A program made the translations under genes and the position numbers. From Alphaproteobacteria bacterium (lineage in GTDB: Bacteria > Pseudomonadota > Alphaproteobacteria > UBA7879), in contig CBCXTT010000002.1 in NCBI GenBank assembly GCA_965178295.1, forward strand, positions 170,925 to 234,924: a stretch of DNA of 64,000 bases, written 5' to 3'. Below the pieces are notes generated by a model, which saw only the letters and a list, made by a program, of their open reading frames with translations, had not been told where the DNA came from and did not search any database. Within the stretch, counting starts at the first letter, position 1; the number at the start of each line of letters is the position of its first letter. Below are positions 32,387-55,753 of the stretch, piece after piece.

Positions 32387-33505
32387 TCAAGGTACACAAT
32401 AAACAGCCGAAGAAGGAATATAGCGATGACAAATAGCCTCTGCAAAACCCTTTTCCTGCAGCCTCAAAAGACTATGGTTTATTTTCTCTTTATACGGACT
32501 CCCCTTTGGCAAGGAAAAAGAGACTTCGTCAATCGCAAGCCGTATATCAGAGACTTTAAGGGCGAAATTTTTATGCTCTTGCACTTCTTGCGCAAGAGAT
32601 ACGTAGTCATCGATTACAACATCCACCTCCTGAGTGTGAAGCGCCTCTATAGCCGCATCTAATGTTTCGTAAGAGATCACTTTTGCAGTTGATCGCTTCG
32701 CTATTACAGCATTCTCTGAACCCCGTACAACCCCCGAGACCATATCCTGTAAATCCTCAATGTTTGAAATTGTCTGATTATTGTAGCTATACAAGGTAGA
32801 AGATAAAGCACTTGTAATCATACCAAAAAAACCCGATACAAAAACGAGTGATACAATAAGCCAAAAAGCCATAAAAACTCGCGCTTGGGGCCCTTCTGGT
32901 CTGTATAAAACTTTGATTTGAATAAGGCGCGCAAACATAAACCACATACTGTCGCCAATACCTCGAAAATACCTTGTGCTGATTTCAGGAGCATGCCATC
33001 TGTAAAAAAACCAATACACATGCGCAGCAACAATAAAGAAAATAGCAATAATAAAGAAACCGACCTCACCCAATTTTTTCATAAATATGTGTAATGCATC
33101 TAAAAAACCTAAATGAATCTCATGAAACGCCACACCTATTTGCTCAATAAAAAAAGGGCGCGTAAAGTCCAAGCGTGACAGCCTATCTCGTGTAGCAGAA
33201 ACAGGGCCAAGAACGAGATCAATGTGACCGTTTTCAAGAGACTCCAGAGCTGAGGAAATATTAGAACCAAGAGATGTAAGGGTATAGGACAATTGATTGT
33301 CCTGCGCAATTTCGTCCCATATGTCAATTGCAAATCCAGAGGGAATGTCTGAAGAAAGAAAAGAAAACGGTTTATGGTCAACGTATCCAACACGCACATC
33401 AATAGCACACAGAAAAGTGGGCCAGAGAAAAATAATGATAAATCGCTTGATCACGTTATTATGCCTCCCTTCTTTCATTTGATCTTCCTTAAAAAAATCT
33501 GTCAA
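32387..33505 (-). CDS. ionotropic glutamate receptor-like ligand-gated channel (GluR0-type: periplasmic SBP lobe 1 - M1 - pore loop - M2 - SBP lobe 2)
   Basis: 372 aa. Signal/TM segment first, then an SBP_bac_3-like lobe (VRVGYVDHKPFSF...GHIDLVLGPVSATRDRLSRLDFTRPF). Next comes TM VGFFIIAIFFIVAAHVYWFF, then a pore-helix-like FRGIGDSMWFMFARLIQ (compare iGluR SLWFSLGAFMQQG), then TM VFMAFWLIVSLVFVSGFFGMITSALSS (compare iGluR M3 ...ISSYTANLAAFLT). A second SBP lobe follows (…VDVVIDDYVSLAQEV...SFSLPKGSPYKEKINHSLLRLQEKG). No TVGYG K+ filter and no M4. Probable true start at MKEGRHNN. Confidence 0.7.
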   Translation of the reverse strand: MTDFFKEDQMKEGRHNNVIKRFIIIFLWPTFLCAIDVRVGYVDHKPFSFLSSDIPSGFAIDIWDEIAQDNQLSYTLTSLGSNISSALESLENGHIDLVLGPVSATRDRLSRLDFTRPFFIEQIGVAFHEIHLGFLDALHIFMKKLGEVGFFIIAIFFIVAAHVYWFFYRWHAPEISTRYFRGIGDSMWFMFARLIQIKVLYRPEGPQARVFMAFWLIVSLVFVSGFFGMITSALSSTLYSYNNQTISNIEDLQDMVSGVVRGSENAVIAKRSTAKVISYETLDAAIEALHTQEVDVVIDDYVSLAQEVQEHKNFALKVSDIRLAIDEVSFSLPKGSPYKEKINHSLLRLQEKGFAEAICHRYIPSSAVYCVP

Positions 33506-39829: not shown

Positions 39830-41071
39830 CTATAAATCGTAATACGGACCTTTATAAGTTACCAATGTTGAAAAACAAAGAAGCGCTACAGACATAATGA
39901 CCAACGACGGGGCATAATATGACTCCAGAGCACCAACAGCATATTTCATAACCAAAGGAGATAGACTCGCTCCAATACCCATACCTAAGGAAAAGCTAAA
40001 CGCCACTCCACTATATCGATCTTTCGCTGGAAACAAGCGCTGCACAAAAGCATGCTCCGGGCCCGCGATGCTTGCAACGCATGTACCCAAAAGAATTTGG
40101 GCAATAATAAACCCCAAAGTCATAAAATTTTGCAACAAATAAAACAGGGGCACAGCAAATAGGAACGCATAGATACAAGACAATCTCATCATGTTTTGAC
40201 CGCCTATTTTATCAAGAACAAACCCCCAAGCAGGCGCACAAAAAATGAAGGTCACGATCCCAATCATCGTAAACTCTAAAACGTAATGCTCGGATACATT
40301 AAAATAGTTCACCAGGTAGATCGCAATAAATTTATACATAGTGTACGAGAGAGTACCATTCAACACGCCAATACACATTGTCGTCAGCACAGCATGTTTG
40401 TGACGAAACAAGGCATCTGTTAAAGGAGAACGAATAGTTTCTTTTTTCTCGTGTATCTTTGTGAAAGCTGGGGATTCATCCATATACAAACGTATGTACA
40501 GCCCCACGAGACTGATGAGTGCACCTAGCATAAAAGCAACGCGCCACGACCACTCGGGCATCCAATCAAACGTAATCACAACACCAACCGCTGTTGCTGC
40601 CAAAGCCCCAATTACACTGGCGCCTGTAATAAGCCCACCAGCCATACCTGGATAGCTCTTCCCTACATGTTCAAGCGTATAAATAGCAGACCCGTTATAT
40701 TCTCCTCCTGTGCACAGTCCCTGCATCAGGCGACAAATAACTAAAACTATAGGCGCAACGATGCCAATGTGTGCATAAGTTGGCAACACGCCAATAACAA
40801 ACGTCGGCAATCCCATGCAACTTACCGTCAGAACAAGGGCTTTCTTACGACCAAAAACATCCCCTATGTATCCAAACACACTGCCGCCAAAAGGTCGTGC
40901 AATAAAAGCTAGCGCAAACGCCATCCAACCTGCCATAAACGCATATTCGCCCTCCGCAGGGAAAAAGGCCTTTCCAATACGTTCTGAACAAACCGCGTAA
41001 AGCATAAAATCATAAAACTCCAAAGAAGTGCCTGCTATACTCGCTAGAATAACTTTTGCTTTTTTCATCAA
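39830..41071 (-). CDS. MFS transporter, ProP-like proline/betaine family (second copy in window)
   Basis: 413 aa. SIAGTSLEFYDFMLYAV N-terminal motif. AAGGAGG Shine-Dalgarno 7 nt upstream. Confidence 0.85.
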   Translation of the reverse strand: MMKKAKVILASIAGTSLEFYDFMLYAVCSERIGKAFFPAEGEYAFMAGWMAFALAFIARPFGGSVFGYIGDVFGRKKALVLTVSCMGLPTFVIGVLPTYAHIGIVAPIVLVICRLMQGLCTGGEYNGSAIYTLEHVGKSYPGMAGGLITGASVIGALAATAVGVVITFDWMPEWSWRVAFMLGALISLVGLYIRLYMDESPAFTKIHEKKETIRSPLTDALFRHKHAVLTTMCIGVLNGTLSYTMYKFIAIYLVNYFNVSEHYVLEFTMIGIVTFIFCAPAWGFVLDKIGGQNMMRLSCIYAFLFAVPLFYLLQNFMTLGFIIAQILLGTCVASIAGPEHAFVQRLFPAKDRYSGVAFSFSLGMGIGASLSPLVMKYAVGALESYYAPSLVIMSVALLCFSTLVTYKGPYYDL

Positions 41072-42597
41072 ACCTCCTTAACGCTTCATAAAAAGTTGCA
41101 TGAAGCTTTTCTCAAAAACATATTTCAAAATAGGAGTTAGTATAGACAGAAACTTCTTACTTTGCAAATTCTGCCTCCTCAGCGTTTCTTATTGGTTAAT
41201 TTTGATGTAAAAAATGGTTGCTAATTTATTCACAAGTACTATATTATATAGAAATATTGAATATATGAAAAATATGTTTGGAAACACCCCGAAATCACCC
41301 TCCTATTGTTACACAAAGCTGATGGGAGATTGGGATTATGCAGCAGCTATGCTCGCTGTTATTACGATTTCTGCTCTTTGGAAGCTCAATCCCACATTGA
41401 CTATCTGCGCTCAGTTATGGATCAAAGCCGTGCGACAGTGTGAGTGCACGAACAATACCTCAACATCAACAAAATGGATATTGTCCAGGCACAAATCCTC
41501 TCCAACAGTCAAATGATAAGCGTAGTAAAAATGACAGAAGTGGTGGCATAGAGGAAGATATGGGATCAGTATGGGGCACATATTGTAAGAAAACTGCGTC
41601 TCTCCGAGGGCTGCACAAGCGATGGAAGCACTACGTTGAGCAGGAGACGTCATCTCACAGAGAGATCAGATGACGGGATTACCATTTTCTACAACATTGA
41701 TGATACAATGCCTAGGATTTCTCACCCTTCTTGAGAGTATAGGGTGCGCGTCTACCCAAACACTTCCAAAAGTACGCATCCAAACCCGCTACAGGGTGTG
41801 TAGTATCCACAAATTTGTGCTATTGAGCGCTCTCATATACGTCATACACGCATCCTCCCCCCTACACAAGAAATTCCATGCGGCATAGAGAGCTAAAAAA
41901 TGTAGCGGTTTGAGGTCATCTGTCGGGAAAACATGACTCTGGTACGCCCAACATGCTACTCTAGATAGAGGTCCAAAAATTCCAACAACAGTCAGACTAC
42001 ATATGCGTCATATGCGATTATCTCTTCATCCCACCCCGCACTTATACAGGTATACCACGAAGCCGATCCCAGAGAAAATTGGCGGTTCCTCTCTTATATG
42101 GCAAGTGTGACGAAAAGTCGCCAAATCAATCAGAAGAGATAGTAATATATAAAATATACAGTAATAAAAATCATAACTGCTTTCTTGGGAGATCCATTGG
42201 AGAAGATGCATATCCGGCCTACTCTTCAGTGCTGCACAAAAAGGTGACAATTAGTGGTGTAGAAAAAATGATAAAAGAAACGCTAGTACACATTCTAGCC
42301 TCAATGCGTGATACGACTAGAGGGGTAAAATACACTACTAAAAATCTTGTCTTTTTTTATCACTATTGTTCTGAACACGAGTATTAGTTAAGTTGCACTC
42401 TACGCGCTCTCCCTTCCTCTCACATCTCTTTTAACCCTGCAACAGAGTTCAGAATCTGAGACTCTTTCAGCTTCTAACGCTGATGATACTTTGGTAATCC
42501 TGAAGCAAGAGAAGCTCTGCATTAATTAATATAAAATAGTGTTTCTTCCGTGCCACTTTGAAGAAAAAGAACAGACAAGAAACCAGCGAAAAAACAT

Positions 42598-42651
42598 TAC
42601 TATGCAAGATAGCGCAACTATGCAAGATAGCGCAACTATGCAAGATAGCGC
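42598..42651. repeat. 18-bp tandem repeat x3 (ACTATGCAAGATAGCGCA), in-frame within a small ORF (MQDSAT x3)
   Basis: Three perfect 18-bp units at 42598-42651, then a degenerate fourth (CAAATACAAGATTGT). Confidence 0.9.
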
Positions 42652-42763
42652 ACAAATACAAGATTGTATGAATGCTCTTGAAAATCGTGTTTTTATACTT
42701 ACACAAGCCGCCTCTAGTAATAACGGCGCTCTACGTGTGCACCAAATGTGGTCTCTGCAGTAA
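42601..42763 (+). CDS. hypothetical small protein (about 53 aa) with N-terminal MQDSAT hexapeptide repeats
   Basis: The first canonical ATG lies inside the repeat. The ORF reads MQDSATMQDSATMQDSAQIQDCMNALENRVFILTQAASSNNGALRVHQMWSLQ*. There is no obvious SD. A second mini-ORF starting ATGCAAGAT (MQDAGAARR...) lies at 44292..44420 and is followed by a hairpin plus T-run. Confidence 0.2.
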
Positions 42764-44435
42764 AAATATGCAGAAAATTAGTAGAGAAATTTCCTGACTT
42801 ATGGCTCAGGTATGAGATAGTATTCACGTGCGTCCGTTTCTGGTGTGCAAAAATTTATATCCACGGCACGTCTGAACTGTGCACTAAGAAGTGATGAGAC
42901 GAATGCGTCGTCACGCACAGCACAAAAAAGCTTCTATCGCACTGCACATGTTGGAACTTCCCTTGGACAAAGATACATAAATTTCATAGATTGATCTGTT
43001 AAAATTCTGTATATAGCGCGGCCTTAACGTTGCAATTCTGTGCTGATTACATAAAGGTGTAGATTGAATTGTCTCAGACTCATAGAAGTAGTGGAAACAC
43101 AGAGGAAATGCTCTTCAGCAGTAGAGATTCGGCCTCCAATCCTGACCTAGAGATGCGGATAAGAGATCCTTCCAACGTTCGAGGGCGGCTGATGTGCTCT
43201 ATGCATAGGTATACACAGCACACTCACAATCAAAAAGATTAGCCATTAGGCATGAGGAATGCAGCATGCACAGTGAGCGTCAGGGGCAATCTGTGTGAAC
43301 ACTGCAGCAACTTCCAGAGGTGTGATCGAAAATCAGTTGGGATTGCCAGAAATGGCTGGTCACATAAAGCATCGAATCAAAAACATGACATCAAACATAG
43401 TACAAAAGACAATATACGCAATATATCCATTACTCTCTATAATCACAGTGTCAATACTGCATTGCAAATACGAGCTTGATAAGACTGTGGACAATAATAG
43501 TGCCATGCAATAGCGTGGAAAGTGCAAAAAGTAGAGATATAGAAAAAAGCATCATCATATCAAAAGGAGCTCTAGATATGAGTGATTATAGCATTAATCT
43601 TTCTGGACAAATCGTTTAGGTGAATATGCAACTAACACTCATGTATAAAGCGCACGCAATAATAGGCGTACACAGCACTGAGTAATAAATATATTCCCTG
43701 TCAGGCAATCAGGGTAGAAATATTTTTGTCCACGTCACACAGGTGAGAGTCTACATCCAAGCGTCGTAGAGTTACCATAAGGACCTGGATTACTATCGTC
43801 CAAAAAAGTCTTTTTACTGCACACAGAGCACAGGGGTTTTTCAGATTTTGTTACACAGTGTTTCACACTAAATTACTACAGAATAGCAACTGCTGTACAA
43901 GTGGAAAACACCACACAAAGTTGTCCGATTTTGGTCAGCAGTCTTCATATCGATAACCGTTGCGGCGATATTGACTATGATGGAATATTTAGATGCTCAT
44001 TAGATCCAAAAAATTCCTGAAATTACACTATCCGGAGCAGATAGTGGATCAATCTATGGGCACTGAGATAGAGTGCACTCTTATTATAAACGCAGGTTTG
44101 AGTGCACCGACAACAGGGGGGTGGAAGAAGGAACCATCAAGCTTAAACAATTTAAATTCCAAAAATCACATCTTCTCAATTGCAAGTAGCGGTTAGTTCT
44201 CGAACATACTGCATGGTATTTCCATAGCATGGTATTGCGTACAATATTGCGTATATTGCATAGTGATTTCACCTTTAACAGAATAAATGCCATGCAAGAT
44301 GCAGGAGCCGCGCGCAGAATGCATCCACTGAATCCGTCTCAAGATAATGGAGCGATACAGAAGAAGGCACATAAGATAAGAATTGACGATGCACAACATC
44401 CTGAAGTTAGTACATCATAAAACACAACCCCCCCT

Positions 44436-44460
44436 CTCTCTACGCTGAGAGTACTTTTTC
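44436..44460 (+). terminator. putative rho-independent terminator (CTCTC-tacgct-GAGAG + TACTTTTTC) on + strand
   Basis: Hairpin directly followed by a T-run on the + strand. It overlaps the gltX stop on the opposite strand. It sits 16 nt after the stop of the + strand mini-ORF 44292..44420. Confidence 0.3.
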
Positions 44461-45783
44461 AAAACGAGACTGAATATTTTGTCGACCCATAAGTTGTAAA
44501 ATCTTTTGCAACTCTGGGCCATGTGCAGCACCTGTCAAGACACGGCGCAAGGGCATAAAAAATTCTTTTCCCGTGCAGGTACTCTCTTCTTTAAATGTCT
44601 GAAACCAGTCCGCCATATCATCACCCTTCCACTGAGCGATATGCTCACAAGCAGCTCGAATAAACGCAATATCTTCTTGTTCCATATTAAGCGCTACTTC
44701 TCCATAGCATATATCCCACCACAAAGATACGTCCTGAAAATTTGTAAGATTCGTCCGTACATTAGTCCAAAAATTCTCTGTAATATTACGACCTTCGGGA
44801 AAATATTTTTTTACCTCTGAGAATGGCATGTTGCGCAATACTTGAGCATTGAGCGTCTTAAGCACTGGCCACGAAAACTTGGGGGTCGCGCGTGCGAACT
44901 TTCTAAAACTAAACTCCTTAATTAAAGGTGCCATATCTGTAAAAGGCGTAAGAGGATCAGACGTTCCCAATCGCGCTAATACATCGCATAATGCTTCAGC
45001 CGTAACACCAGCATCTTGTAATGCGCCTACACTCAGGCTACCCAATCGTTTAGAAAGGCCATCACCTTGTGCATCGGTCACTAAGGTCAAATGTGCAAAT
45101 GAAAAATCTTTAGGTCTGCAGCCCAGAGCATCTATGAGCTGAATCTGTATTGCTGTATTTGCAACGTGATCCTCACCGCGCACAATATGAGTAATCTGCA
45201 TATCTATATCATCTACAACTGATGCCAGTGTATATATCGGGCTTCCATCAGAGCGCACTAACACAGGATCGCTTAAATGCGCTCCATTAAACTGTACTGC
45301 ACCACGCACCAGGTCATGCCATTCAATCGGTTTTTCTTCAAGCTTGAAGCGCCAATGCGGCTCCCTCCCTTCCGCTTCAAATGCTTTGCGAGCCTCAGCA
45401 TCCAGTTGCAATGCCGCCCGATCATACAGCGGTGGCTTACCCTGGTCTAATTTTTGTTTGCGCTTGAAGGCGAGTTCTTCCGGTGTTTCATAACACGGAT
45501 AGAGCCGCCCAATAGATTGTAAATATGCTACTTGAGCCGCGTATCTCTCTAATCTTTTAGATTGCTGCGCCTCTTCATCAATGGTAATCCCCAGCCAGGC
45601 TAAATCCGCATAGATTCTATCCACATATACAGTTTCATTCCGCACTGTGTCCGTATCATCAAAGCGTAAAAGAAATGTGCCGCCTTCATGTTGGGCAAAA
45701 AGCCAGTTTATAAGGGCAGTCCTCAAGTTTCCTACATGCAAATACCCTGTAGGGCTTGGGGCAAAACGCACTTTAACAGTCAT
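44440..45783 (-). CDS. gltX: glutamate--tRNA ligase
   Basis: 447 aa. Class I HIGH motif RFAPSPTGYLHVGNLRTAL and the KMSK-equivalent region. Typical non-discriminating/discriminating GluRS length. Confidence 0.95.
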   Translation of the reverse strand: MTVKVRFAPSPTGYLHVGNLRTALINWLFAQHEGGTFLLRFDDTDTVRNETVYVDRIYADLAWLGITIDEEAQQSKRLERYAAQVAYLQSIGRLYPCYETPEELAFKRKQKLDQGKPPLYDRAALQLDAEARKAFEAEGREPHWRFKLEEKPIEWHDLVRGAVQFNGAHLSDPVLVRSDGSPIYTLASVVDDIDMQITHIVRGEDHVANTAIQIQLIDALGCRPKDFSFAHLTLVTDAQGDGLSKRLGSLSVGALQDAGVTAEALCDVLARLGTSDPLTPFTDMAPLIKEFSFRKFARATPKFSWPVLKTLNAQVLRNMPFSEVKKYFPEGRNITENFWTNVRTNLTNFQDVSLWWDICYGEVALNMEQEDIAFIRAACEHIAQWKGDDMADWFQTFKEESTCTGKEFFMPLRRVLTGAAHGPELQKILQLMGRQNIQSRFEKVLSA

Positions 45784-46262
45784 ACATCCTCAGTATTTAA
45801 ACCACCCATATGGCATAACAATTTCCAGGCCTCTGTGTCAATAGGCATCACAGAAAGGCGCGACTGGCGCACCAAAGCAATATCCTTCAAGTCTGGAGCG
45901 GCTTTTATAGACGCCAAGGTAACAGGCTGCGGCATCGGGACAATCGGCTCAACAGCTACTAGACAAAATTTAGGCTCTATTGGGTCTGGATAAGCCTCAC
46001 GCACAATCTTCAGCACCCCCACAATGCGCTTGTCACTCAAAGAGTGATAAAAAAAAGCTTGGTCCCCCACCGTCATTTTCCGCATATTTCCCTGAGCCTG
46101 GTAATTGCGCACACCATCCCATTCACCAACGCCTTCCTTAACTTGATCCGACCACGACCAACGCCTCGGTTCCGATTTCAATAACCAATAATACAATATA
46201 CAGTACATCTCCGATAATGCATCCAAAGAATATCGGAGATTTGCCTCTATAGCAATATTCAC
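45780..46262 (-). CDS. EVE (PUA-like) domain protein
   Basis: YWLLKSEPRRWSWSDQVKEGVGEWDGVRNYQAQGNMRKMTVGDQAFFYHS is the EVE-domain signature. Likely start MYCILYYW at about 46205. Confidence 0.75.
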   Translation of the reverse strand: MNIAIEANLRYSLDALSEMYCILYYWLLKSEPRRWSWSDQVKEGVGEWDGVRNYQAQGNMRKMTVGDQAFFYHSLSDKRIVGVLKIVREAYPDPIEPKFCLVAVEPIVPMPQPVTLASIKAAPDLKDIALVRQSRLSVMPIDTEAWKLLCHMGGLNTEDV

Positions 46263-47065
46263 ATCAGAACAATATCAAGAGACATGTTGTGCGCCCTTCG
46301 CCCATATATCTAGTTCAGACAAGCACCGCGTCATCCGCCATACAACGTTACTGAACGGCATAGCTCACCAATAGACACTCTTTCGCTAGACACTAAGATA
46401 TTATACCTGTCATCCAATTCACATACGATTCGCTCAAAGAATTATATCTTGTGACGCTCACAGATGGAAAAAGGAAAGATAAACACTCTAGGCAATATAA
46501 TGGTTGATGTAATCATTACGCATATTTTAGCAATTGCGGCTCACAGCATGTGCGCAAATCTTGCGATGCGCCCTATTGTTGTCTGTTCGAGTAATGCCTC
46601 TATCTATGATCGTTATGCCCCTTGCTTCCCCCCTGGGGTGGTTGGTGATTGCGCGCCATAGAGAAGAGCGCACTGCGACGTAGAAAAAACGGCCCTAGTA
46701 GGGAAGGACGGCGTAGGACAGACAGATAACAAGATAATAAAGCTGCCCTTTTGTAGGCAGAACGCATTCGAAAAATTTTCATCCAAAAAATAATGGGGGT
46801 TTGGTCAAAATAGCTGCCTATAGCTATCCTGCCACATGCAAGCGCATATACTTACAAGAGTGCAGGCCACCGATGTTTAGGCTTGCAATAACCCAAGGTT
46901 GACGCTACTGTGGGTGGCCCCAGTCATCGTGAACAAATTATCGTATGACAACAGGCATGAGGCCGAAGAGACCAATGCCGATGCATTCTTGAGAGATACC
47001 AGGAATATACAGTACGCATTTTCCCTTCATCTCGAAATTTAAAAAAGATGCACTAACATTTTTTC

Positions 47066-47082
47066 ATACACTTTCAGTGTAT
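47066..47082. promoter_or_regulatory. 17-bp palindrome ATACACT-TTC-AGTGTAT upstream of metal ABC transporter operon (candidate Zur/Mur/MntR-type operator)
   Basis: Perfect 7-3-7 inverted repeat, about 60-80 nt upstream of the first gene of the znuCBA-like operon, in a divergent promoter region. Confidence 0.4.
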
Positions 47083-47143
47083 ACGTGTGTAAAATGTTTT
47101 GAAGTTTGTATGATTGAGATAAAAAGTAGATGTCACCTTTTTT

Positions 47144-47932
47144 TTGGAATATTTGGGCGCGATTGGGCGCTGTTTTGCTTCTCATAATATTACTGGTATT
47201 AGCCGTATGGTGGGCGCTTTGAGCAAACCGTCAACCATTGTTTGGGACAATGTAACTATAGTCTATAGAAAACATGTCGCGCTCTCTCAAGCATGTGGCT
47301 CCATAAAGCCAGGATCCTTAACAGCCGTGATTGGTCCAAATGGGGGTGGAAAAACAACATTTGTTCGTGCGATTATGGGCCAGGTTCCAATCAAAAGTGG
47401 GTACATAAAATTTCAAGATGGTAAAAAACTTATTCCAGCATATCTTCCTCAAAAATCGTCTTTAGATGCAACATTTCCAATGACACTTAGAGAAGTTATT
47501 GGAATGGGACTTTGTAGTCAGATCGGGGCATTTAGGGCATTTTCATCTGAAGCGCACAAGAAAATCGCTCAAGTCATTCAAGACGCGGGTTTGACAGGAC
47601 TAGAAAAGAGATTTGCAGCAGATTTGTCTGGAGGGCAGTTTCAGCGTATGCTCTTTGCGCGACTTATGCTACAAGAAAAACCAATTATTATTTTAGATGA
47701 GCCTTTTGTGGGTATTGACTCAAAAACACGCAAGAAGCTTGTACAACTTATCTTAAAGTGGCACACACAAGGCAAGACAATAATTGTGGTGCTTCATGAG
47801 TTGAATTTAGTGCGGCAATATTTTCCGGACGTTGTGCTCGTTGGCCGAAAAATTGTTGGGTGGGGAAAAACAGACCAAGTTCTAACCCATGAAAATATGG
47901 AATTAGCTTTTCAGAATCTATTGGAGATTTAG
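47144..47932 (+). CDS. znuC: metal (Zn2+/Mn2+) ABC transporter ATP-binding protein
   Basis: Walker A GPNGGGKTT, ABC signature LSGGQFQRMLFARLM, Walker B IIILDEP. The exact start is uncertain because the track uses an alternative start. Confidence 0.85.
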   Translation: MEYLGAIGRCFASHNITGISRMVGALSKPSTIVWDNVTIVYRKHVALSQACGSIKPGSLTAVIGPNGGGKTTFVRAIMGQVPIKSGYIKFQDGKKLIPAYLPQKSSLDATFPMTLREVIGMGLCSQIGAFRAFSSEAHKKIAQVIQDAGLTGLEKRFAADLSGGQFQRMLFARLMLQEKPIIILDEPFVGIDSKTRKKLVQLILKWHTQGKTIIVVLHELNLVRQYFPDVVLVGRKIVGWGKTDQVLTHENMELAFQNLLEI

Positions 47933-48774
47933 TGGAGATTTTTTTTGAGCCCTTTCATTATTTGTTCATGAAGCGTGCATTAGTGAGTTGCTTGTGCCTG
48001 TCTTGCGCAAGCGCTCCGGTTGGAGTGTTTCTGATCTTAAGACGCATGAGTCTAATGGGAGATGCATTATCCCATTCTATTTTACCTGGCGCAGCTATAG
48101 GATATATTATTGCCGGTCTTTCTCTGCTCGCAATGGGTATAGGAGGCACTATATCAGGATTATTGGTCGCTATATTATCTGGCATTGTTTCGAGACGTAC
48201 AGCACTTAAGGAGGATGCATCATTTGCTGGATTTTTTATTATAGCGGTAGCATCAGGAGTGTTGATAATCTCAATGCGACATAATGCTGTAGACCTTATG
48301 CATGTTTTATTTGGGAGTGCACTTGCGGTAAACAAGTCTGCACTTATATTGATAGGAAGTATTTCTGCTTTTACATTGCTTGTTCTAGCCATCATCTATC
48401 GCCCACTTTTGATGGAGTGCTTTGATCCAGAATATTTTTCTAATATTAGGGGCCGTGGGTCTGTTTATCATATTTTATTTTTAGTGCTTGTTGTGACAAA
48501 TCTTGTCTCGGGATTTCAGGCACTTGGCACTTTGCTGGCCCTGGGCATTATGATGTTGCCGGCAATTGCGTCACGCTTTTGGGCTCAGCGAATTGCAAAC
48601 ATGATTTTGTGTGCTATGGTGGGCGCCTTCATTTCTAGTTATTTTGGCTTGTTGCTCGCCTATTTCTTTAACTTACCTACGGGGCCAGCCATTGTTTTAG
48701 TTGTAGGTGTTTTTTATGTCATCTCTGTCGTTTTTGGTCGCTATGGCGCCTTCATTAAATGGGGTAAACTATGA
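47932..48774 (+). CDS. znuB: metal ABC transporter permease (ZnuB/MntB family)
   Basis: 280 aa, about 8 TM segments, ABC-3 family. Start overlaps the znuC stop. Confidence 0.85.
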   Translation: MEIFFEPFHYLFMKRALVSCLCLSCASAPVGVFLILRRMSLMGDALSHSILPGAAIGYIIAGLSLLAMGIGGTISGLLVAILSGIVSRRTALKEDASFAGFFIIAVASGVLIISMRHNAVDLMHVLFGSALAVNKSALILIGSISAFTLLVLAIIYRPLLMECFDPEYFSNIRGRGSVYHILFLVLVVTNLVSGFQALGTLLALGIMMLPAIASRFWAQRIANMILCAMVGAFISSYFGLLLAYFFNLPTGPAIVLVVGVFYVISVVFGRYGAFIKWGKL

Positions 48775-49691
48775 AGAAGCATATACTTCTATGCGCTTTT
48801 TTTTTGGTGTCCGCATCAATTAATGCATCGATAGCACCCCTTTCTTCTCCTCTTAGAGCAGTTGCAACATTTAGCATTTTAGCGGATTTTGTGAAACAAG
48901 TAGGGCGTGAGCATGTAGTTGTGTCGATTGTTGGACCTAATAGCGATGCACATATATATGAGCCAACACCACAGGATGTCAGAATCGTAAGCGCAGCAGA
49001 TATAATTTTTACAAATGGATTCGGTTTTGAAGGTTGGCTGTCGCGCTTAATAGAGACGTCAGGCTGCAAGGGCAAGATAGTGGTTGCGACAGAGGGCATT
49101 ATACCAAGACTCTTAAATGATCCTGATGAAGGTGTGGTTGAGGATCCGCACGCCTGGCATGACGTTATGTACGTTAAGCGATATATTCAAAATATACAAA
49201 AGGCATTGTCAACAATAGACCCAGAGCGTCGTGATATCTATGCAAGCAATGCAGTCGCTTACTTGAAGGAACTTGAAGATTTAAATCAAGAAATTATACA
49301 ACAAATAGAAGAAATCCCCCCTGAAGCACGGACAATCATTACAGCGCATGATGCATTTGGATATTTTGGTGCGCGTTATGGCATTAATTTCTTGGCACCT
49401 GTCGGTATTAGCACAGAAGCAGAACCGTCTGTTCAAGATATTGTTCGCCTTATTCAAATGATTCAGGCTCACAATATTAAGATGATATTTGTTGAAAATA
49501 TTTCCAACCCTAAAATGATCCATCAGATTGCTGAAGAAACGGGCGCTTTCGTGGGAGGAGTTCTGTATTCTGATGCCTTGTCAGACACACATGAGCCAGG
49601 GGCAACGTACTTAAATTTAATGCGGCACAATGTACATCTTTTTGTATCATCGATGCGAGGAGGTACGCCAAAAAGCTACAGGGAATTTTAG
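48771..49691 (+). CDS. znuA: metal ABC transporter periplasmic substrate-binding protein (ZnuA/MntC/TroA family)
   Basis: 306 aa with a signal peptide (MKKHILLCAFFLVSASINA) and a cluster-9 SBP fold. Start overlaps the znuB stop by 4 nt. Confidence 0.85.
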   Translation: MKKHILLCAFFLVSASINASIAPLSSPLRAVATFSILADFVKQVGREHVVVSIVGPNSDAHIYEPTPQDVRIVSAADIIFTNGFGFEGWLSRLIETSGCKGKIVVATEGIIPRLLNDPDEGVVEDPHAWHDVMYVKRYIQNIQKALSTIDPERRDIYASNAVAYLKELEDLNQEIIQQIEEIPPEARTIITAHDAFGYFGARYGINFLAPVGISTEAEPSVQDIVRLIQMIQAHNIKMIFVENISNPKMIHQIAEETGAFVGGVLYSDALSDTHEPGATYLNLMRHNVHLFVSSMRGGTPKSYREF

Positions 49692-50291
49692 CCTTTAAGA
49701 GTACCTAATGCACTGATGTAAAACGCCAAATTCTCTAAAACTTGTTACAAATTTATGCGCGACCTTCTGCGCGCAACACACTTATTCTAAGTACTATCCG
49801 AAATAAACTTGGTCCGCTCTCTGTGACTGATATCAAATTTTTCGCAGCGTTGCGTTATGGGGGGCGTATATACGAGGATATCTGTTGATGTTTGCTGAGA
49901 AAAATTGGTGCGCAAGAGAATACACAAGATGCTGTGAGCGTCATAAGCCAATGAAAGGCATGCTTTTTATATATGATAATGGTTTGTTATATCTCTCTAG
50001 TGCACATATAACACATCCTGTTCAAACGGATAATGAAATGAAGATCTACAGACGTCACTATCCATGGGCATAATCACACAATGCGCTGCCGCCCGCCCCG
50101 CCTCGGCTGTAGCGGAGTGGAGCTATCAGGGACTACACAAGTCAATAGAGGAGGATCATGAGAAAAAAGCACAATAGGGGTATTGTTTTGTAAAACAATC
50201 ATATCCTTAGTGCCCCCCCCGAGGCTTTTGTGCTGCACAAAGGCACATAGTGCAGGACTCTAGGGAGAATGATGCTGTTGTGTGGGGCGCA

Positions 50292-52940
50292 TCATGTTGA
50301 GACCATTACCTGAAGTCGATTAAGAGCATCTTTGTTCTTTTGTAAGGTCTCTCTATCGCAAGCCAGTTGATCACGTGCTTTCTCAATCACTAAAAAAGGC
50401 GCTTTGGCTATAAACTCTCCGTTATTGAGACGTTTTGATGTATGCTCTATAGCGCGCGTACATTGATCAATTTTTTTCTTGAGGCGAGCTTGCTCCACAG
50501 AAAGATCAATAATGCCATCAATAGGAATAAAGAAAATATCTTTCTCCACAATCATTTGTAACATGTTTTGCCCTGGTGTAGTTGCGGCTTTGATGTTTTG
50601 AATGCACCCAAGCTTGCAAATGATATCTGTGTGTCGCTTAAGTCGTTCTTTGGTTGGTATATCCGTAGTCCCAATATATATATCCAGCTTTACCGCGGAT
50701 GGTAAGTGCATTTCTGCACGCAATGATCGAACAGCAGAGACAAACGCAATAAGCCAGCTGATCTCTTTTTCTGCATTATTGAAATTTTGAGTAAGAGTTG
50801 TATCCGGCCACTTACCTGTGATCAGAGCTGTTTTTCCACCCAGCACTTCCCAGAGCGCTTCTGTTGTATAAGGAATAATAGGGTGAAGCAGATGATATAA
50901 TGTACCTAACGCCCAAGATATGGTGCGTTTTGTTTCTGTGACGATCTCCCGCTCTGTGCTGGAGAGCAACGGTTTTGTAATTTCAAGATACCAATCACAA
51001 AACGCACCCCATGTGAAATGGTACAGTTTTGATGCAGCCTCATTGAATCGGTACGTATTGAGACTGTTGGAGACATCGTGAATAAGATCGGTAAGTTGGG
51101 AGGCCATCCATTGATTCGCGACCACCTTACATGTATTGGGATCAAAAGTGTCCTGCCAAGAAGCGCCAGCCATGATGGCATACCGTGATGCATTCCATAA
51201 TTTTGTAATAAAATTACGACCACCTGTTATTTTGTCTTCTGATGCGCGAATATCTCGGCCAATGGTTGCAAGCTGTGCTAAAGAAAATCTCAAGGCATCC
51301 GCTCCGTATTGCTCAATAAGGGCAAGTGGGTCGATTACATTTCCCTTAGACTTAGACATTTTTTGACCGTTTTGATCGCATACCAGAGCATGCACATATA
51401 CTGTTTTAAACGGTACTTGTTTAGTGAAATGCAAGCCCATCATCATCATCCGCGCCACCCAGAAGAAAATAATGTCAAATCCAGTAACAAGAACGGATGT
51501 CGGGTAGAATTTTTCCATTTCAGATGTGCGCTCAGGCCATCCAAGAGACGTCAGTGGCCAGAGGGCTGACGAAAACCATGTATCTAGAACATCTTCATCC
51601 TGCACAAGAGGCGTCGAGGTGCCGTAATGTGTATGCGCCTGTTGTGCCGCATCTACTTCATCGTGAGCAACAAATATGTGGCCATCTGGCCCGTACCAGG
51701 CTGGAACCTGATGCCCCCACCATATTTGTCGCGAAATGCACCAAGGCTGTATGTTGCGCATCCACTCAAAATAAGTAGTTTTCCAATTGTCGGGGACAAA
51801 TTTTGTCTCACCAGATTCAATGGCTTCAATGGCAGGTTTTGCCAGTATTTTAGCATCTAAAAACCACTGCTCTGTTAGGTATGGCTCAATGACAATGTCA
51901 GATTTTTCACCGTATGGCACGACATGTGAGATGACTTCAGTTTTTTCTAAAAGATCTAAGCGTTCAAATGATTCTAATACTTTTTGTCGTGCCTCATTAA
52001 GTGTCAGTCCTCTAAAGTCCAGGGGCACAGCATCATTCTCATTAAGCCTGAGCTCTCTAGTAAGAATATTAATGACAGGTAGATCGTGTCGTTTCCCTAC
52101 CTCAAAGTCATTGAAATCATGAGCGGGCGTTATCTTAACGGCACCGCTACCTTTTTCAGGGTCTGTATACGTATCGGCAATGATAGGTATGCGGCGACCT
52201 ATGATAGGAAGCAGAATTTCTTGTCCAACCATATGTTTGTATCTTTCATCGTGTGGATGAACAGCAACCGCAGTATCACCAAAAAAGGTTTCAGGCCGTG
52301 TTGTGGCAACAATAATGTGCTCTGTGGTACTATCTGCCACAGGGTATTTTAAATGCCACATATGTCCGAGCTCTTCTTTTTGTACAACCTCCAAATCGGA
52401 AATAGCTGTTTGAAATTTAGAATCCCAATTTATGAGTCGTTTGTCTTTGTATATTATCTTTTCTTGATAGAGCTTGACAAATACATCACGCACAACGCTA
52501 TTTGCTGCTGCATCCATTGTGAATCGCTCTCGTGACCATAAGGCGCTAGCACCTAATTGTTTCAGTTGGCGCACGATATTGCTTCCGGATTTTTCTTTCC
52601 ACGCCCAGACATGGTTGATAAATTCTTCTCGGCCCAATTCATGTCTAAAGATATTGTTGTCATTTAACTGGCGTTCAACGACACACTGGGTTGCAATGCC
52701 TGCATGGTCTGTTCCAGGCTGCCATAGGACATCTTGTCCCAACATTCTGTGATAGCGAATTAAAATGTCTTGTATGGTAAAAGTGAGTGCATGCCCTAGG
52801 TGCAGAGATCCTGTGACATTCGCAGGCGGCATAATAATACTATAAGGCGCTGAATCTGTGCTGGATAAATGTGTGGTGCAGTGCCATTTCTTTCTATATT
52901 GGGCCTCGATTTCAGAAAAAATAGGTTTTGTTTCTAACAT
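50292..52940 (-). CDS. valS: valine--tRNA ligase
   Basis: 882 aa. HIGH-type motif PPANVTGSLHLGHAL, KMSKS motif, and a C-terminal coiled coil. Confidence 0.95.
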   Translation of the reverse strand: MLETKPIFSEIEAQYRKKWHCTTHLSSTDSAPYSIIMPPANVTGSLHLGHALTFTIQDILIRYHRMLGQDVLWQPGTDHAGIATQCVVERQLNDNNIFRHELGREEFINHVWAWKEKSGSNIVRQLKQLGASALWSRERFTMDAAANSVVRDVFVKLYQEKIIYKDKRLINWDSKFQTAISDLEVVQKEELGHMWHLKYPVADSTTEHIIVATTRPETFFGDTAVAVHPHDERYKHMVGQEILLPIIGRRIPIIADTYTDPEKGSGAVKITPAHDFNDFEVGKRHDLPVINILTRELRLNENDAVPLDFRGLTLNEARQKVLESFERLDLLEKTEVISHVVPYGEKSDIVIEPYLTEQWFLDAKILAKPAIEAIESGETKFVPDNWKTTYFEWMRNIQPWCISRQIWWGHQVPAWYGPDGHIFVAHDEVDAAQQAHTHYGTSTPLVQDEDVLDTWFSSALWPLTSLGWPERTSEMEKFYPTSVLVTGFDIIFFWVARMMMMGLHFTKQVPFKTVYVHALVCDQNGQKMSKSKGNVIDPLALIEQYGADALRFSLAQLATIGRDIRASEDKITGGRNFITKLWNASRYAIMAGASWQDTFDPNTCKVVANQWMASQLTDLIHDVSNSLNTYRFNEAASKLYHFTWGAFCDWYLEITKPLLSSTEREIVTETKRTISWALGTLYHLLHPIIPYTTEALWEVLGGKTALITGKWPDTTLTQNFNNAEKEISWLIAFVSAVRSLRAEMHLPSAVKLDIYIGTTDIPTKERLKRHTDIICKLGCIQNIKAATTPGQNMLQMIVEKDIFFIPIDGIIDLSVEQARLKKKIDQCTRAIEHTSKRLNNGEFIAKAPFLVIEKARDQLACDRETLQKNKDALNRLQVMVST

Positions 52941-53014
52941 AACAATCTCCTAAACATGCAATCATCCGTTCAGTATCATAAAAACTCTATATCTAGTGGA
53001 ATTTAGCATCAAAA

Positions 53015-53836
53015 TCAACGAAACTTTTTCTCAATAATCTGACGTATTTCTTTTTGTATAATGTCATGAACTATTTTCGGCAAGTGTGTTGCAATCCACT
53101 CTTTAAGCATTGGCTGAGCAGCAAGTATCATCATGTCTTCAAGCGTTGCATTGGCTGAGGTTCTTGTATCCGGTGGGTGTAAGATTTGATTGTTTTCCGT
53201 TTCTGATTCAAGCTGATTGAGAGTAGAAAGAGATTGATCTATAGCTTTTGCAACCGTGTGTGAGATGATACTGGAGCGTTGCGCATTACCGTGATTCTCA
53301 TCTTCTAGGGCAGATTGCTCACCTGAAGAATTCATACACTTTGTACCTGAGGTAGAGGGCATCTCACTCGACTCTGCGCTTACCCTGGTTATAGGCGCGT
53401 CTTTCTTGAGCAGCGTAACAAGCTCCTCTAAAGCGGCATCATAATCTTCTGTGCGGCCACCAGCTTCATCATCCCCATCGTCAGCACCTTCTCCTTGTGA
53501 GGATAAAGCGACAATCGACCCATCTTTTTGGATCTCTTGTGTGAGCTCTAAAATGTCATGATTATTATTATCGACATTGGGCATTGCACTCTCTGAGCAT
53601 GTACCCGACATAGAACGAGCAGATGGCGCATCAATAGTATCTGCTGACAAGAGTGTGGTGTCACTTGCAGATGAATGCATATGAATGCTATCTGGTTTCT
53701 GATTGCCCCCTGACCCAGTGGCTTCTTTGTTCACCGCAGCACCAGCGGTTTGCGGATCATTATCGGCTGCCATGATCTGCCGAATGGAGGCTAAAATTGC
53801 TTCCATGGACATGTCTTGCTCGTTTTCAGCGCCCAT
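53015..53836 (-). CDS. popZ: PopZ-like polar organizing protein (DUF2497)
   Basis: N-terminal MEAILASIRQIMAADNDP helix, a long acidic, Ser/Pro-rich low-complexity middle, and a conserved C-terminal LAAQPMLKEWIATHLPKIVHDIIQKEIRQI. Sits at the conserved tolC/valS-adjacent position. Likely start at the MSMEAIL methionines. Confidence 0.7.
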   Translation of the reverse strand: MGAENEQDMSMEAILASIRQIMAADNDPQTAGAAVNKEATGSGGNQKPDSIHMHSSASDTTLLSADTIDAPSARSMSGTCSESAMPNVDNNNHDILELTQEIQKDGSIVALSSQGEGADDGDDEAGGRTEDYDAALEELVTLLKKDAPITRVSAESSEMPSTSGTKCMNSSGEQSALEDENHGNAQRSSIISHTVAKAIDQSLSTLNQLESETENNQILHPPDTRTSANATLEDMMILAAQPMLKEWIATHLPKIVHDIIQKEIRQIIEKKFR

Positions 53837-53848
53837 CTATTCCTGTCC

Positions 53849-55270
53849 TTACAACTCCCTGTATTGATCCACGATCACATCTTTTGATTGATTGAGTACC
53901 TCAAAGGTATCATTAGACGCACCCCAAACGCTTCCAACTGTCGTTGGGTTGTAGGCCGGATCTGTTATACCAAACCTTGATGAAGATAACACCCCCATTT
54001 TTGCAAGCAATTCAAAGCTCGATACAACTTTGGTTGCAGCAGCAACAATCAGCTTGTTTGTGGCATCCAGTCTCTTTTGTCCGGCTGTAATGACATCTAG
54101 ATATGTTTTGCTGCCCAAGCGATATTCGGCTTGAACATTCTTAAACGCCAGATCAGTAGATTTGTGTTGGGCTTCGAACTGGGGAATTTTTGCAACCTGC
54201 TCCTGGTAAGTGTACCACACTTTTAAAATATCTTGGATTGTTGAACGTCGTTTTTGCACTGCCTGAAGCTTAGCCGTAGCGGCATCGTATTTCTTGGCTC
54301 GAACGCCTGCTTGTATCGATCCACGCACATCCAGTGGGATGCTTAGAGTAAGACCTAAAACGCCAGTATTTTGACGTTGAGTTGTATGAGAGCCTGCTCC
54401 AAGCGCGCCTATGGCATCTGTGCCTTGACGACCATAGCTTGCATTAAAATCAACGCTGGGCATCAAACTTGACAACGCATCATCAGCACCCGCTTCAGCA
54501 GCGGTGACGACTGCATCAGCTGTTTTTATATCAAAGTTATGCGTCAGTGTGATACGAACCAATTCCTCTTCTGTGTGCGGGAGGTCGACAGGTTCTTTGG
54601 GGGTTTCCAGATTTTCTGGAGGCATTGCACCAATAATACGAATATACTGTGACTCAGCATTTTTAACTTGCATTTTTCGCTCAATAAGGTGAGCTTTTGC
54701 CCCTTCATATTCTGCGCGAATCGCCTCTACTGATGCAATTGTATCTTCCCCTACATCAAATCGTGACCGGGCAGCATGGAGTTCGGTTTCATAGACTTTC
54801 GCATTTGATTCAGCCGCATTCTTTAGAAGACGTGCCGCGACAAGCTCAACATATGTCTGAACAGCGGCGACCAAAAAGAACATGCGGCTGGACTCTGTGT
54901 TGTACAACGCACGCTCTTTCACGCTTTCGGCCCCCTTAATGCTTGCCAGAGTGGCGCCACCATTGAACAGGTTTTGTGACATTTTTATTATACCGCTATT
55001 TGTACGACTTTGCTGATGTGGCGCTCCACTTGGAGGCACAGATGATTTTGTCGATGTGAATGTTGTGTGTGTTCCAAGCTCCACACTCAAGACTGGAAAC
55101 CACCCTCTCTCTGCCTGTGACAAGCCTTCTTCAGATTTTTTTTGTCCAGATACGGCAATATCAATTTCTATGCTATTTTCATAGGCACGTTTTACAGCTT
55201 CATCTAACGTGAACGCGCTCACAACATTGCACAAAAATAACGCGCCACAGATCACTAAACTATATTTCAT
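53849..55270 (-). CDS. tolC: TolC family outer membrane efflux protein
   Basis: 473 aa with a signal peptide and two OEP repeat halves. Confidence 0.85.
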   Translation of the reverse strand: MKYSLVICGALFLCNVVSAFTLDEAVKRAYENSIEIDIAVSGQKKSEEGLSQAERGWFPVLSVELGTHTTFTSTKSSVPPSGAPHQQSRTNSGIIKMSQNLFNGGATLASIKGAESVKERALYNTESSRMFFLVAAVQTYVELVAARLLKNAAESNAKVYETELHAARSRFDVGEDTIASVEAIRAEYEGAKAHLIERKMQVKNAESQYIRIIGAMPPENLETPKEPVDLPHTEEELVRITLTHNFDIKTADAVVTAAEAGADDALSSLMPSVDFNASYGRQGTDAIGALGAGSHTTQRQNTGVLGLTLSIPLDVRGSIQAGVRAKKYDAATAKLQAVQKRRSTIQDILKVWYTYQEQVAKIPQFEAQHKSTDLAFKNVQAEYRLGSKTYLDVITAGQKRLDATNKLIVAAATKVVSSFELLAKMGVLSSSRFGITDPAYNPTTVGSVWGASNDTFEVLNQSKDVIVDQYREL

Positions 55271-55411
55271 GCACTTCTCCCCTCACTCTCTTTACATTAA
55301 TGCAACACATAATCATTCTAGAGCGCTATTACAAAAGAATCAATCGTTGCTAACGCACAATATATGCTTCAATAATCACGTTGATTGAAAAAGTAGTGCA
55401 ATATCCACTCT

Positions 55412-55753
55412 TTAGTAAGTGGGAATTGATGGATCAATTTCTAGAGCATAAGCGTTAATACCCCCTTTTAGGCTGTGTGCGCAATAGCGATTTTCCCGAA
55501 GCAGCTGAGCAATTCTTAGACTGCGAACGCCATGATGGCAGTAAACAATCACTTCTTTATCTCTCGGCAGCATGTGCATTTTCTCGTGAATTTCTCTCAG
55601 GGGTATATGAATGGCACCGGGTAGAGCCGCTAACGCCACCTCCCAAGGCTCACGCACATCAAGAATACAGTGATTATCTGAATGATTGATTAACGCTGCA
55701 CATTCAGCAGCCGATACTTGGAATGCTTTATTATCACTCATTACTTTTCTCAC
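55412..55753 (-). CDS. rhodanese-like domain protein (single-domain sulfurtransferase)
   Basis: 113 aa. Active-site CHHGVRS loop. Confidence 0.8.
   Translation of the reverse strand: MRKVMSDNKAFQVSAAECAALINHSDNHCILDVREPWEVALAALPGAIHIPLREIHEKMHMLPRDKEVIVYCHHGVRSLRIAQLLRENRYCAHSLKGGINAYALEIDPSIPTY

What the first reader, a model, noticed from the sequence alone, without database searches (positions are those of the whole stretch)
41072..44440. 3.4-kb ORF-poor, AT-richer block between an MFS gene and gltX
No ORF longer than about 100 aa occurs on either strand across about 3.4 kb in an otherwise tightly packed region, and the block looks AT-richer by eye than the roughly 45% GC of the rest of the window. 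It contains a coding-phase 18-bp tandem repeat, two mini-ORFs beginning ATGCAAGAT, and hairpin plus T-run structures. Candidate explanations are a decayed gene cluster or degraded island, a cluster of small-protein or sRNA genes, or a regulatory or non-coding locus. This is the least explained stretch of the window.
Basis: seen in the sequence. Interest (0 to 1): 0.55.

Follow-up and report, generated by a model that had tools for sequence, protein, structure and literature searches.

The report
Orphan 3.4-kb non-coding spacer
The 3.4 kb between the transporter gene and gltX really has no genes, but every test shows featureless, unconstrained DNA with no detectable gene relic, RNA or small protein, most likely leftover eroded DNA in a loosely packed genome, so it is ordinary.

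Summary
Window 41072-44439 lies between the MFS transporter (start ATG at 41068, minus strand) and gltX (stop at 44440, minus strand). It has no ORF above 102 aa and is the largest block in the window without coding signal.

"AT-richer" is only marginally true: 40.6% GC against 42.8% for the window, not about 45%. That value equals the GC of fourfold-degenerate sites in the window's genes (39.8%).

Nothing functional was detected:
- no codon bias and no 3-base periodicity;
- no Pfam, NCBIfam or PHROG hit in six frames, while a positive control on two split genes worked;
- no hit for either strand against 5.8 billion proteins;
- no Rfam family and no excess RNA structure;
- no similarity to phages, plasmids, or 77 loci around gltX and MFS homologues.

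The two "MQD" mini-ORFs and the ATGCAAGAT coincidence are at chance level. The 18-bp x3 repeat is real, and related copies lie at 43410 and 44244.

No sufficiently close relative was retrievable for alignment: the nearest gltX is 66% identical.

Best reading: unconstrained spacer DNA long resident in this genome, probably eroded genes or mobile DNA. Only its edges are functional. The erosion origin is inferred, not shown. Low interest.

The parts
41072..44439 (.). Non-coding block between the MFS transporter gene and gltX; no detectable gene, gene relic or known RNA
   Evidence: ORF list. Codon-usage LLR is near the shuffled background against 22.8 +/- 7.8 in genes. No 3-periodicity. Six-frame Pfam, NCBIfam and PHROGs scans gave nothing credible. 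Both strands against 5.8 billion proteins: no hit at E<=10. Rfam: none.
41073..41079 (-). Shine-Dalgarno AAGGAGG of the MFS gene, 4 nt before its likely ATG start (41066-41068)
   Evidence: Read directly from the sequence. MFS identity from Pfam MFS_1/Sugar_tr.
41139..41168 (-). Sigma-70-like promoter candidate for the MFS gene (TTGCAA/TTTGCA, 17-18 nt, TATACT)
   Evidence: Consensus scan. Promoter-like sites are not significantly enriched in the block overall (15 against 10.2 +/- 2.9), so this is a positional inference only.
44434..44451 (-). Weak 5-bp hairpin overlapping the gltX stop codon; there is no canonical intrinsic terminator after gltX
   Evidence: z = -1.6. Read-through from gltX into the block is therefore possible (inference).
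42599..42664 (+). 18-bp tandem repeat ACTATGCAAGATAGCGCA: three perfect copies plus a degenerate partial fourth
   Evidence: TRF score 108, 100% matches. Family D1. No other copy in the window. No match in viral or metagenome contigs.
43410..43424 (+). CAATATACGCAATAT, a 15-nt copy of a motif related to the 18-bp unit; forms a perfect inverted repeat with 44244-44258
44244..44264 (-). Inverted partial copy of the 18-bp unit (20 of 23 aligned positions, 2 gaps), within a patch of short local duplications
   Evidence: Local alignment scored 27 against a null of 19.1 +/- 2.2, P about 0.006..
42530..42763 (+). Open frame holding the repeat (MQDSAT x3 ...); judged a chance ORF, not a gene
   Evidence: Highest codon LLR of the block (15.4 bits, P 0.02-0.05), falling to 11.1 (chance level) once the repeat is collapsed. 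No SD. The only HMMER hits are two repeat proteins matching repeat-on-repeat.
44292..44420 (+). Second 'MQD' mini-ORF (42 aa), convergent with gltX; judged a chance ORF
   Evidence: LLR 7.7 bits for its 76-codon open frame, within the simulated null. No SD at its ATG. No hit.
42720..42839 (-). Best local RNA fold in the block; not significant after multiple testing
   Evidence: z = -3.7 and -3.5. It is one of about 170 windows tested. Mean z over the block is -0.01 (plus) and -0.27 (minus).

Best explanation
The block is unconstrained spacer DNA that has resided in this genome for a long time. It most probably consists of former gene(s) or mobile DNA eroded beyond recognition and not yet deleted. 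It encodes no protein and no recognisable RNA. Only its edges do anything. The left 100-200 nt carry the promoter, 5'UTR and ribosome-binding site of the MFS transporter gene. The right edge is the 3' end of gltX, which lacks a strong terminator, so the block may be passively transcribed by read-through. The 18-bp repeat and its two related copies are best read as recent slippage or template-switch duplications in DNA under no constraint.

Shown: absence of coding, homology and structure signals, and a native-like neutral composition.

Inferred: the origin by gene erosion, and the lack of function.
For: 1. There is no coding signal. The best-frame codon LLR in 300-nt windows runs from -25 to +10, against 22.8 +/- 7.8 in genes and -19 +/- 7.6 in shuffles. 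Open frames of 40 codons or more score -0.041 per codon, against a simulated null of -0.045 to -0.033. There is no 3-periodicity.

2. There is no homology. Six-frame translations gave 0 Pfam hits at E<=1 and only 13-15-bit noise in NCBIfam and PHROGs. The same method recovers two split genes elsewhere in the window at 5e-18 and 3e-56. Both strands against 5.8 billion proteins gave nothing at E<=10. Blastn against plasmids and phages gave nothing. Tblastx against 752 kb around gltX and MFS homologues gave a best E of 0.38.

3. There is no RNA signal. Rfam found nothing at gathering or E<=5 thresholds. Mean fold z is about 0.

4. The composition is that of neutral sites in this genome. Block GC is 40.6%, against 39.8% at fourfold sites and 38.1% for GC3. 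T>A on the minus strand matches fourfold sites of the mostly minus-strand genes.

5. The dinucleotide signature deviates from the genic average (delta* 100 against 43 +/- 14). It deviates in the same direction as the other long gaps of the window, 12791-14538 and 3017-4157.

6. The genome is loosely packed. About 81% of the window is covered by supported ORFs. Three further gaps of 0.9-1.75 kb also lack any Pfam relic. Four genes are frameshift-split.

7. This kind of DNA is known. About 25% of the R. prowazekii genome is non-coding and largely regarded as junk or decayed genes (PMC4683814 abstract; PMC3899985).
Against: There is no positive trace of any ancestral gene, so 'eroded gene' is an argument by exclusion. 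The stop-triplet depletion that looked like a coding ghost is genome-wide. After controlling for trinucleotides, the excess of 60-aa-or-longer open frames is marginal (22 against 15 +/- 3, P about 0.03).

Bacteria usually delete useless DNA, so retention of 3.4 kb needs either weak deletion bias or some function.

The four split genes all break at or near A-runs and include glyS and lpdA. They may be homopolymer sequencing errors rather than evidence of genome decay.

The motif family (three loci, P about 0.006) is not explained in detail.

No sufficiently close relative was retrievable (nearest gltX 66% identical), so lack of conservation could not be tested. The word-index protein search is insensitive to remote homology, and long queries may dilute it further.
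Confidence: 0.6

Rival explanations
1. The block holds lineage-specific functional non-coding elements. Candidates are one or more sRNAs, a long 5' leader or regulatory region for the MFS operon, or an array of protein-binding sites built on the 18-bp motif.
For: A motif family occurs at three loci within 1.7 kb: three tandem copies, one direct copy and one inverted copy, with P about 0.006. One 120-nt window folds with z = -3.5 to -3.7. A promoter-like site at 42556>42528 and a terminator-like site at 42299>42282 lie on the minus strand about 230 nt apart. The unusual length of the spacer is itself suggestive.
Against: There are no Rfam hits. Mean fold z is about 0, and the single outlier is expected among about 170 tests. 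Promoter-like and terminator-like sites are not enriched. The three tandem copies are 100% identical, which is typical of recent slippage rather than maintained binding sites. No conservation data exist.
Confidence: 0.15
2. It is the remnant of horizontally acquired DNA: an integrated plasmid with iterons, a prophage, or an IS or MITE. Its genes have decayed.
For: It has the strongest dinucleotide-signature deviation in the window. Three tandem 18-bp direct repeats sit next to an AT-rich stretch (42521-42540) with an inverted partial copy, loosely resembling an iteron arrangement. A 15-nt perfect inverted repeat spans 849 bp.
Against: There is no similarity to 72,556 plasmids or 50,697 phages at the DNA level. 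There are no PHROG, transposase, Rep or integrase domains in any frame. No tRNA or att-like flank is present; the only tRNA is at 55848. GC equals the host's neutral-site GC, and the signature resembles other host gaps. The inverted repeat has no target-site duplication (sequence). The 18-bp period is not helically phased.
Confidence: 0.1
3. It encodes small proteins: the two MQD mini-ORFs, or a 35-aa hydrophobic peptide at 43451-43558 on the minus strand.
For: The two MQD frames have the highest codon LLR in the block, at 0.27 and 0.25 per codon, which is gene-like. The repeat period is a multiple of 3.
Against: The LLR is P 0.02-0.05 and falls to chance level after the repeat is collapsed. 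Neither MQD start has a Shine-Dalgarno sequence. No protein in 5.8 billion shares significant similarity. HMMER against 1.84 billion representatives returns only two repeat-on-repeat artefacts. The ATGCAAGAT coincidence is not significant.
Confidence: 0.05
4. It is an assembly artefact: a chimeric or mis-joined stretch, or an error-ridden sequence hiding real genes.
For: Four genes in the window carry frameshifts at or near A-runs, which suggests homopolymer indel errors. The source record could not be inspected.
Against: Many ORFs of 800-1060 aa are intact, so the error rate is low. A few indels cannot erase codon bias, periodicity and all profile hits over 3.4 kb, and the control on split genes shows they remain detectable. 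Both junctions are biologically sensible: the MFS RBS and the gltX stop. The composition is native-like.
Confidence: 0.04
5. It contains the chromosomal replication origin.
For: Gene orientation and GC skew change sign between about 46 and 56 kb. The block is the largest intergenic region nearby.
Against: There is no perfect DnaA box. One-mismatch boxes number 4 in 3.4 kb, against about 1.8 expected from the window's own density, with no cluster. There is no CtrA site TTAA-N7-TTAA. The skew follows gene orientation, and the block itself has a skew of about 0. The switch point lies outside the block.
Confidence: 0.03

Closest known systems
Long eroded intergenic spacers ('junk DNA') of genomes under reductive evolution, e.g. 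Rickettsia prowazekii (about 25% non-coding; PMC4683814, PMC3899985, PMC2374718)
   Same: A kilobase-scale ORF-free stretch between housekeeping genes. It has no codon bias, base composition at the genome's neutral equilibrium, co-occurrence with split genes, and lowered coding density (about 81% here).
   Different: In Rickettsia the ancestral genes were identified by comparison with close relatives (own knowledge of that literature; not checked in the papers here). Here no sufficiently close relative was retrievable (nearest gltX 66% identical) and no relic is detectable, so the origin is inferred. The split genes here may be sequencing errors.
Plasmid-type iteron arrays or repeated protein-binding sites
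   Same: Direct tandem repeats of about 18 bp beside an AT-rich stretch, with additional partial copies in direct and inverted orientation.
   Different: No initiator (Rep) gene or any gene is nearby. There are only three copies, they are 100% identical and contiguous, and the 18-bp period is not helically phased. No plasmid similarity was found.
Poly(A)-tract frameshifts in endosymbiont genes (own knowledge: described for Buchnera and Blochmannia, where transcriptional slippage can rescue them; not checked in a paper here)
   Same: The four split genes elsewhere in the window break at or near A-runs of 5-7 bases.
   Different: This concerns the genomic context, not the block itself. It cannot be distinguished here from homopolymer sequencing error.
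Large structured bacterial ncRNAs (own knowledge: OLE, GOLLD, ROOL, HEARO)
   Same: They occupy long ORF-free intergenic regions.
   Different: No Rfam family matched anywhere in the block. There is no excess of predicted structure, and the block is several times longer than any of these RNAs.

Membership tests
Pseudogene or relic of a known protein family | Translated similarity to a protein family or to any known protein, in one or several frames | tested here: not met
   Pfam gave 0 hits at E<=1. NCBIfam and PHROGs gave only 13-15-bit noise. The search against 5.8 billion proteins gave none at E<=10 on either strand. The positive control works.
Pseudogene or relic of a known protein family | Similarity to genes that flank the orthologous neighbours in relatives | tested here: not met
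   Tblastn and tblastx against L008, L009 and 65 MFS loci gave a best E of 0.38. Synteny beyond EVE-gltX is not conserved.
Unconstrained spacer ('junk') DNA | ORF lengths, codon usage and periodicity indistinguishable from random sequence of the same composition | tested here: met
Unconstrained spacer ('junk') DNA | Base composition equal to that of neutral (fourfold-degenerate) sites of the same genome | tested here: met
   Block GC is 40.6%, against 39.8% at fourfold sites. Strand asymmetry is in the same direction.
Unconstrained spacer ('junk') DNA | Neutral divergence or absence in close relatives | not testable with these tools
   The nearest relative has 66% GltX identity on a 6.4-kb contig. 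The source species was not found in the genome collection.
Known non-coding RNA family (Rfam 15) | Covariance-model match at or near the gathering score | tested here: not met
   No match at gathering. The only match at E<=5 was a 20.7-bit miRNA model, which is noise.
Small-protein gene | Start codon with a ribosome-binding site, gene-like codon usage beyond chance, and homologues | tested here: not met
Prophage, plasmid or IS remnant | DNA or protein similarity to mobile elements, plus terminal repeats with a target-site duplication or a tRNA/att flank | tested here: not met
Iteron-type replication origin | Three or more direct repeats of 17-22 bp | tested here: met
   18 bp x 3.0 copies.
Iteron-type replication origin | Adjacent initiator (rep) gene | tested here: not met
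   No protein domain in any frame.
Chromosomal oriC (alphaproteobacterial type) | Cluster of DnaA boxes, CtrA sites, and location at the skew switch | tested here: not met

The most novel reading that the evidence does not exclude
The block is a lineage-specific functional non-coding locus of a deep-branching alphaproteobacterium. It could be a long unstructured or novel RNA transcribed between gltX and the MFS operon. Alternatively it could be a set of binding sites for an unknown DNA-binding protein, defined by the TGCAA(G/T)ATA(G)CGCAA motif present at three loci. That would explain why 3.4 kb is retained despite bacterial deletion bias.
Probability: 0.1. Interest if true: 0.5.

Novelty: new member of a known kind. 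Interest (0 to 1): 0.15.

Why it matters
It matters little by itself. It is one more example of kilobase-scale featureless spacer DNA in a bacterial genome with lowered coding density.

Its modest value is as a marker. This deep-branching alphaproteobacterial lineage tolerates non-coding DNA: about 19% of the window, with four orphan gaps. That fits a host-associated or small-population lifestyle.

It is also a clean negative control region for neutral composition in this genome. If a close relative is sequenced, the block could show which genes were lost next to gltX.

Tried and rejected
- Synteny via the genome collection with GltX returned only distant phyla.
- An exact look-up of the window's GltX found no contig.
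- The neighbours of the two nearest GltX homologues (a 201-aa orphan in L008; AnmK in L009) leave no trace in the block.
- 65 metagenomic MFS loci show no shared synteny and no similarity to the block.
The single job went to the best mini-ORF and returned only repeat artefacts.
- The minus frame 0 has only 44 stops against about 60 in the other frames, with six long open stretches in register. This looked like a ghost gene, but it has no periodicity, codon bias or homology. Rejected as chance.
- Stop-triplet depletion was considered as evidence of ex-coding DNA. Rejected because it is genome-wide.
- A weak WcaK (pyruvyl transferase) NCBIfam hit at about 43223-43417 on the plus strand scored 15 bits against a cut-off of 399, with no Pfam counterpart. 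Treated as noise.
- The origin-of-replication idea was rejected for the block.
- Exact scans for the repeat dimer in viral and metagenome contigs found nothing.
- Structure prediction of the mini-ORFs was not run, because neither outcome would be decisive.
Full report
**What is there**

The block runs from 41072 to 44439. On its left is an MFS transporter gene on the minus strand (Pfam MFS_1/Sugar_tr). Its likely ATG is at 41068, preceded by AAGGAGG at 41073-41079. On its right is gltX on the minus strand (44440-45783), preceded by an EVE-domain gene. The longest start-to-stop ORF in the block, on either strand, is 102 aa. The longest stop-to-stop frame is 140 aa, which is what shuffled sequence yields (104 +/- 21, P=0.07). 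A codon-usage scan of the whole window shows this is the largest stretch without coding signal, about 3 kb against 1.2 kb or less elsewhere.

- The block is 40.6% GC against 42.8% for the window (not about 45%) and 43.1% for genes. The difference is real but small, about 2 sd.
- That GC matches neutral sites in the window's genes: 39.8% at fourfold-degenerate sites and 38.1% at third positions. The T>A excess on the minus strand mirrors the fourfold sites of the mostly minus-strand genes. The composition is what unconstrained DNA long resident in this genome should have.
- The 18-bp repeat (42599-42652, three perfect copies plus a degenerate fourth) is real.
- The shared ATGCAAGAT start of two mini-ORFs is not significant. 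The 9-mer occurs at three independent places in the window, with 1.5 expected.
- Terminator-like hairpins are not enriched: 5 against 2.7 +/- 1.5.

**Coding potential**

- The best-frame codon log-likelihood in 300-nt windows runs from -25 to +10 inside the block. Genes give 22.8 +/- 7.8 and shuffles give -19 +/- 7.6.
- There is no 3-base periodicity. Chi-square p exceeds 0.02 in every 600-nt window, against 1e-3 to 1e-7 in the flanking genes.
- Open frames of 40 codons or more score -0.041 per codon, the same as simulated sequence.
- An apparent excess of medium-length open frames (22 of 60 aa or more against 9.7 +/- 2.7 in dinucleotide shuffles) shrinks to 22 against 15 +/- 3 when trinucleotides are preserved.
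- The underlying depletion of stop triplets is genome-wide, in genes and in gaps alike (ratios 0.82-0.91). It is therefore not a coding ghost.
- The minus frame 0 has fewer stops (44 against about 60) and six open stretches in register. It has no periodicity, codon bias or homology, and I treat it as chance.

**Homology**

- Six-frame translations with stops masked gave no Pfam hit at E<=1. NCBIfam gave only 13-15-bit noise, and PHROGs gave one 14-bit hit.
- The same procedure applied to two split genes elsewhere in the window recovered Pyr_redox_2 at 5e-18 and polyprenyl synthase at 3e-56. The method works on recent pseudogenes.
- The three frames of each strand, concatenated, were searched against 5.8 billion proteins. 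None scored E<=10. The window's GltX and EVE proteins from the source record are in that collection. The result therefore also suggests the source annotation has no protein-coding gene here.
- Blastn against plasmids and phages found nothing.
- The best mini-ORF frame (42530-42760) was searched with HMMER against 1.84 billion representatives. It hit only two tandem-repeat proteins, matching repeat against repeat.

**RNA**

Rfam found nothing in the block at gathering thresholds. At E<=5 it found one noise hit. Sliding-window fold z-scores average -0.01 (plus strand) and -0.27 (minus strand). The single outlier, 42720-42839 on the minus strand with z about -3.6, is expected among about 170 tests. 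ARAGORN finds only tRNA-Cys at 55848.

**Comparative evidence**

- The source is a deep-branching alphaproteobacterium. Hits at about 50% identity carry alphaproteobacterial names. The nearest GltX is 66% identical, on a 6.4-kb contig, and the next is 59%.
- EVE-gltX is conserved, but what lies downstream of gltX differs in each relative: a 201-aa orphan in one, AnmK in the other. None of their neighbouring proteins matches the block.
- 65 metagenomic loci with MFS homologues (61% identity or less) share no synteny with the window and no similarity to the block. The best tblastx E over 752 kb is 0.38.
- Whether the block is conserved, inserted or decayed in situ therefore cannot be tested with the available data.

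**Context in the window**

- Supported ORFs cover about 81% of the window.
- Three other gaps (3017-4157, 12791-14538, 46263-47143) also lack any Pfam relic in six frames.
- The block has the most deviant dinucleotide signature in the window (delta* 100 against 43 +/- 14). The deviation runs in the same direction as in the other long gaps, which are closer to the block than to the genic DNA. This argues for a native non-coding signature rather than foreign DNA.
- Four genes are frameshift-split: lpdA, an FNR/TrxR-like gene, polyprenyl synthase and glyS. The breaks that could be located lie at or near A-runs. They may be poly(A) slippage mutations, as own knowledge suggests for endosymbionts, or homopolymer sequencing errors. 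I therefore give them little weight as evidence of genome decay.

**The one unexplained detail**

The 18-bp unit has relatives at 43410-43424 (direct) and 44244-44264 (inverted). The two are identical to each other over 15 nt, and the inverted copy matches the unit at 20 of 23 aligned positions (P about 0.006). The tandem copies are 100% identical. The 44.2-kb site sits in a patch of short local duplications. I read these as recent slippage or template-switch events in unconstrained DNA. A binding-site family cannot be excluded. An iteron-type origin is unlikely: there is no rep gene, no plasmid similarity and no helical phasing.

A chromosomal origin in the block is also unlikely. There is no DnaA-box cluster and no CtrA site, and the skew switch lies at 46-56 kb.

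**Conclusion**

The block is best explained as unconstrained, long-resident spacer DNA, probably eroded genes or mobile DNA, with functional sequence only at its edges (confidence 0.6). This is a known kind of thing, as in the Rickettsia-type 'junk' spacers (PMC4683814, PMC3899985). The erosion origin is inferred by exclusion and not demonstrated. Rivals are functional ncRNA or binding sites (0.15), a foreign or mobile remnant (0.10), small proteins (0.05), an assembly artefact (0.04) and oriC (0.03). Interest is low.

Noticed in passing
window 4158-5572 (-), 23832-24899 (+), 25719-26684 (+), 26665-28805 (-): Four genes are split by frameshifts: lpdA, an FNR/TrxR-like oxidoreductase, polyprenyl synthase and glyS. 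The breaks that could be located lie at or near A-runs of 5-7 bases. They are either poly(A) slippage pseudogenes or homopolymer sequencing errors. Two of the genes (glyS, lpdA) would normally be indispensable.
   Followed up: partly
window 3017-4157, 12791-14538, 46263-47143: Three further orphan gaps of 0.9-1.75 kb have no Pfam relic in six frames. The two longest share the focal block's dinucleotide signature. Only about 81% of the window is covered by supported ORFs.
   Followed up: partly
window 13494-13995: Four one-mismatch DnaA-box-like 9-mers, all on the plus strand, lie within 500 bp of non-coding DNA upstream of hemB (14539). Their significance was not assessed.
   Followed up: no
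window ~46000-56000: Gene orientation and GC skew change sign here: minus-strand genes with negative skew to the left, plus-strand genes with positive skew to the right. This could mark a replication origin nearby or merely operon layout. The 0.9-kb gap at 46263-47143 has no DnaA-box-like site.
   Followed up: partly
window 32387-33505 (-): An ORF combining a periplasmic binding domain (SBP_bac_3) with ligand-gated ion-channel domains (Lig_chan, Ion_trans). This is a GluR0-like prokaryotic glutamate-receptor channel (classification from own knowledge).
   Followed up: no
whole window: The source lineage is isolated. The nearest GltX in 5.8 billion proteins is 66% identical, and the next is 59%. 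The species was not found in the genome collection of GTDB species representatives.
   Followed up: partly
window 44385-44460 (-): gltX has no canonical intrinsic terminator. There is only a weak 5-bp hairpin over its stop codon and a second hairpin without a U-run. Transcription may therefore read into the spacer towards the MFS gene.
   Followed up: partly
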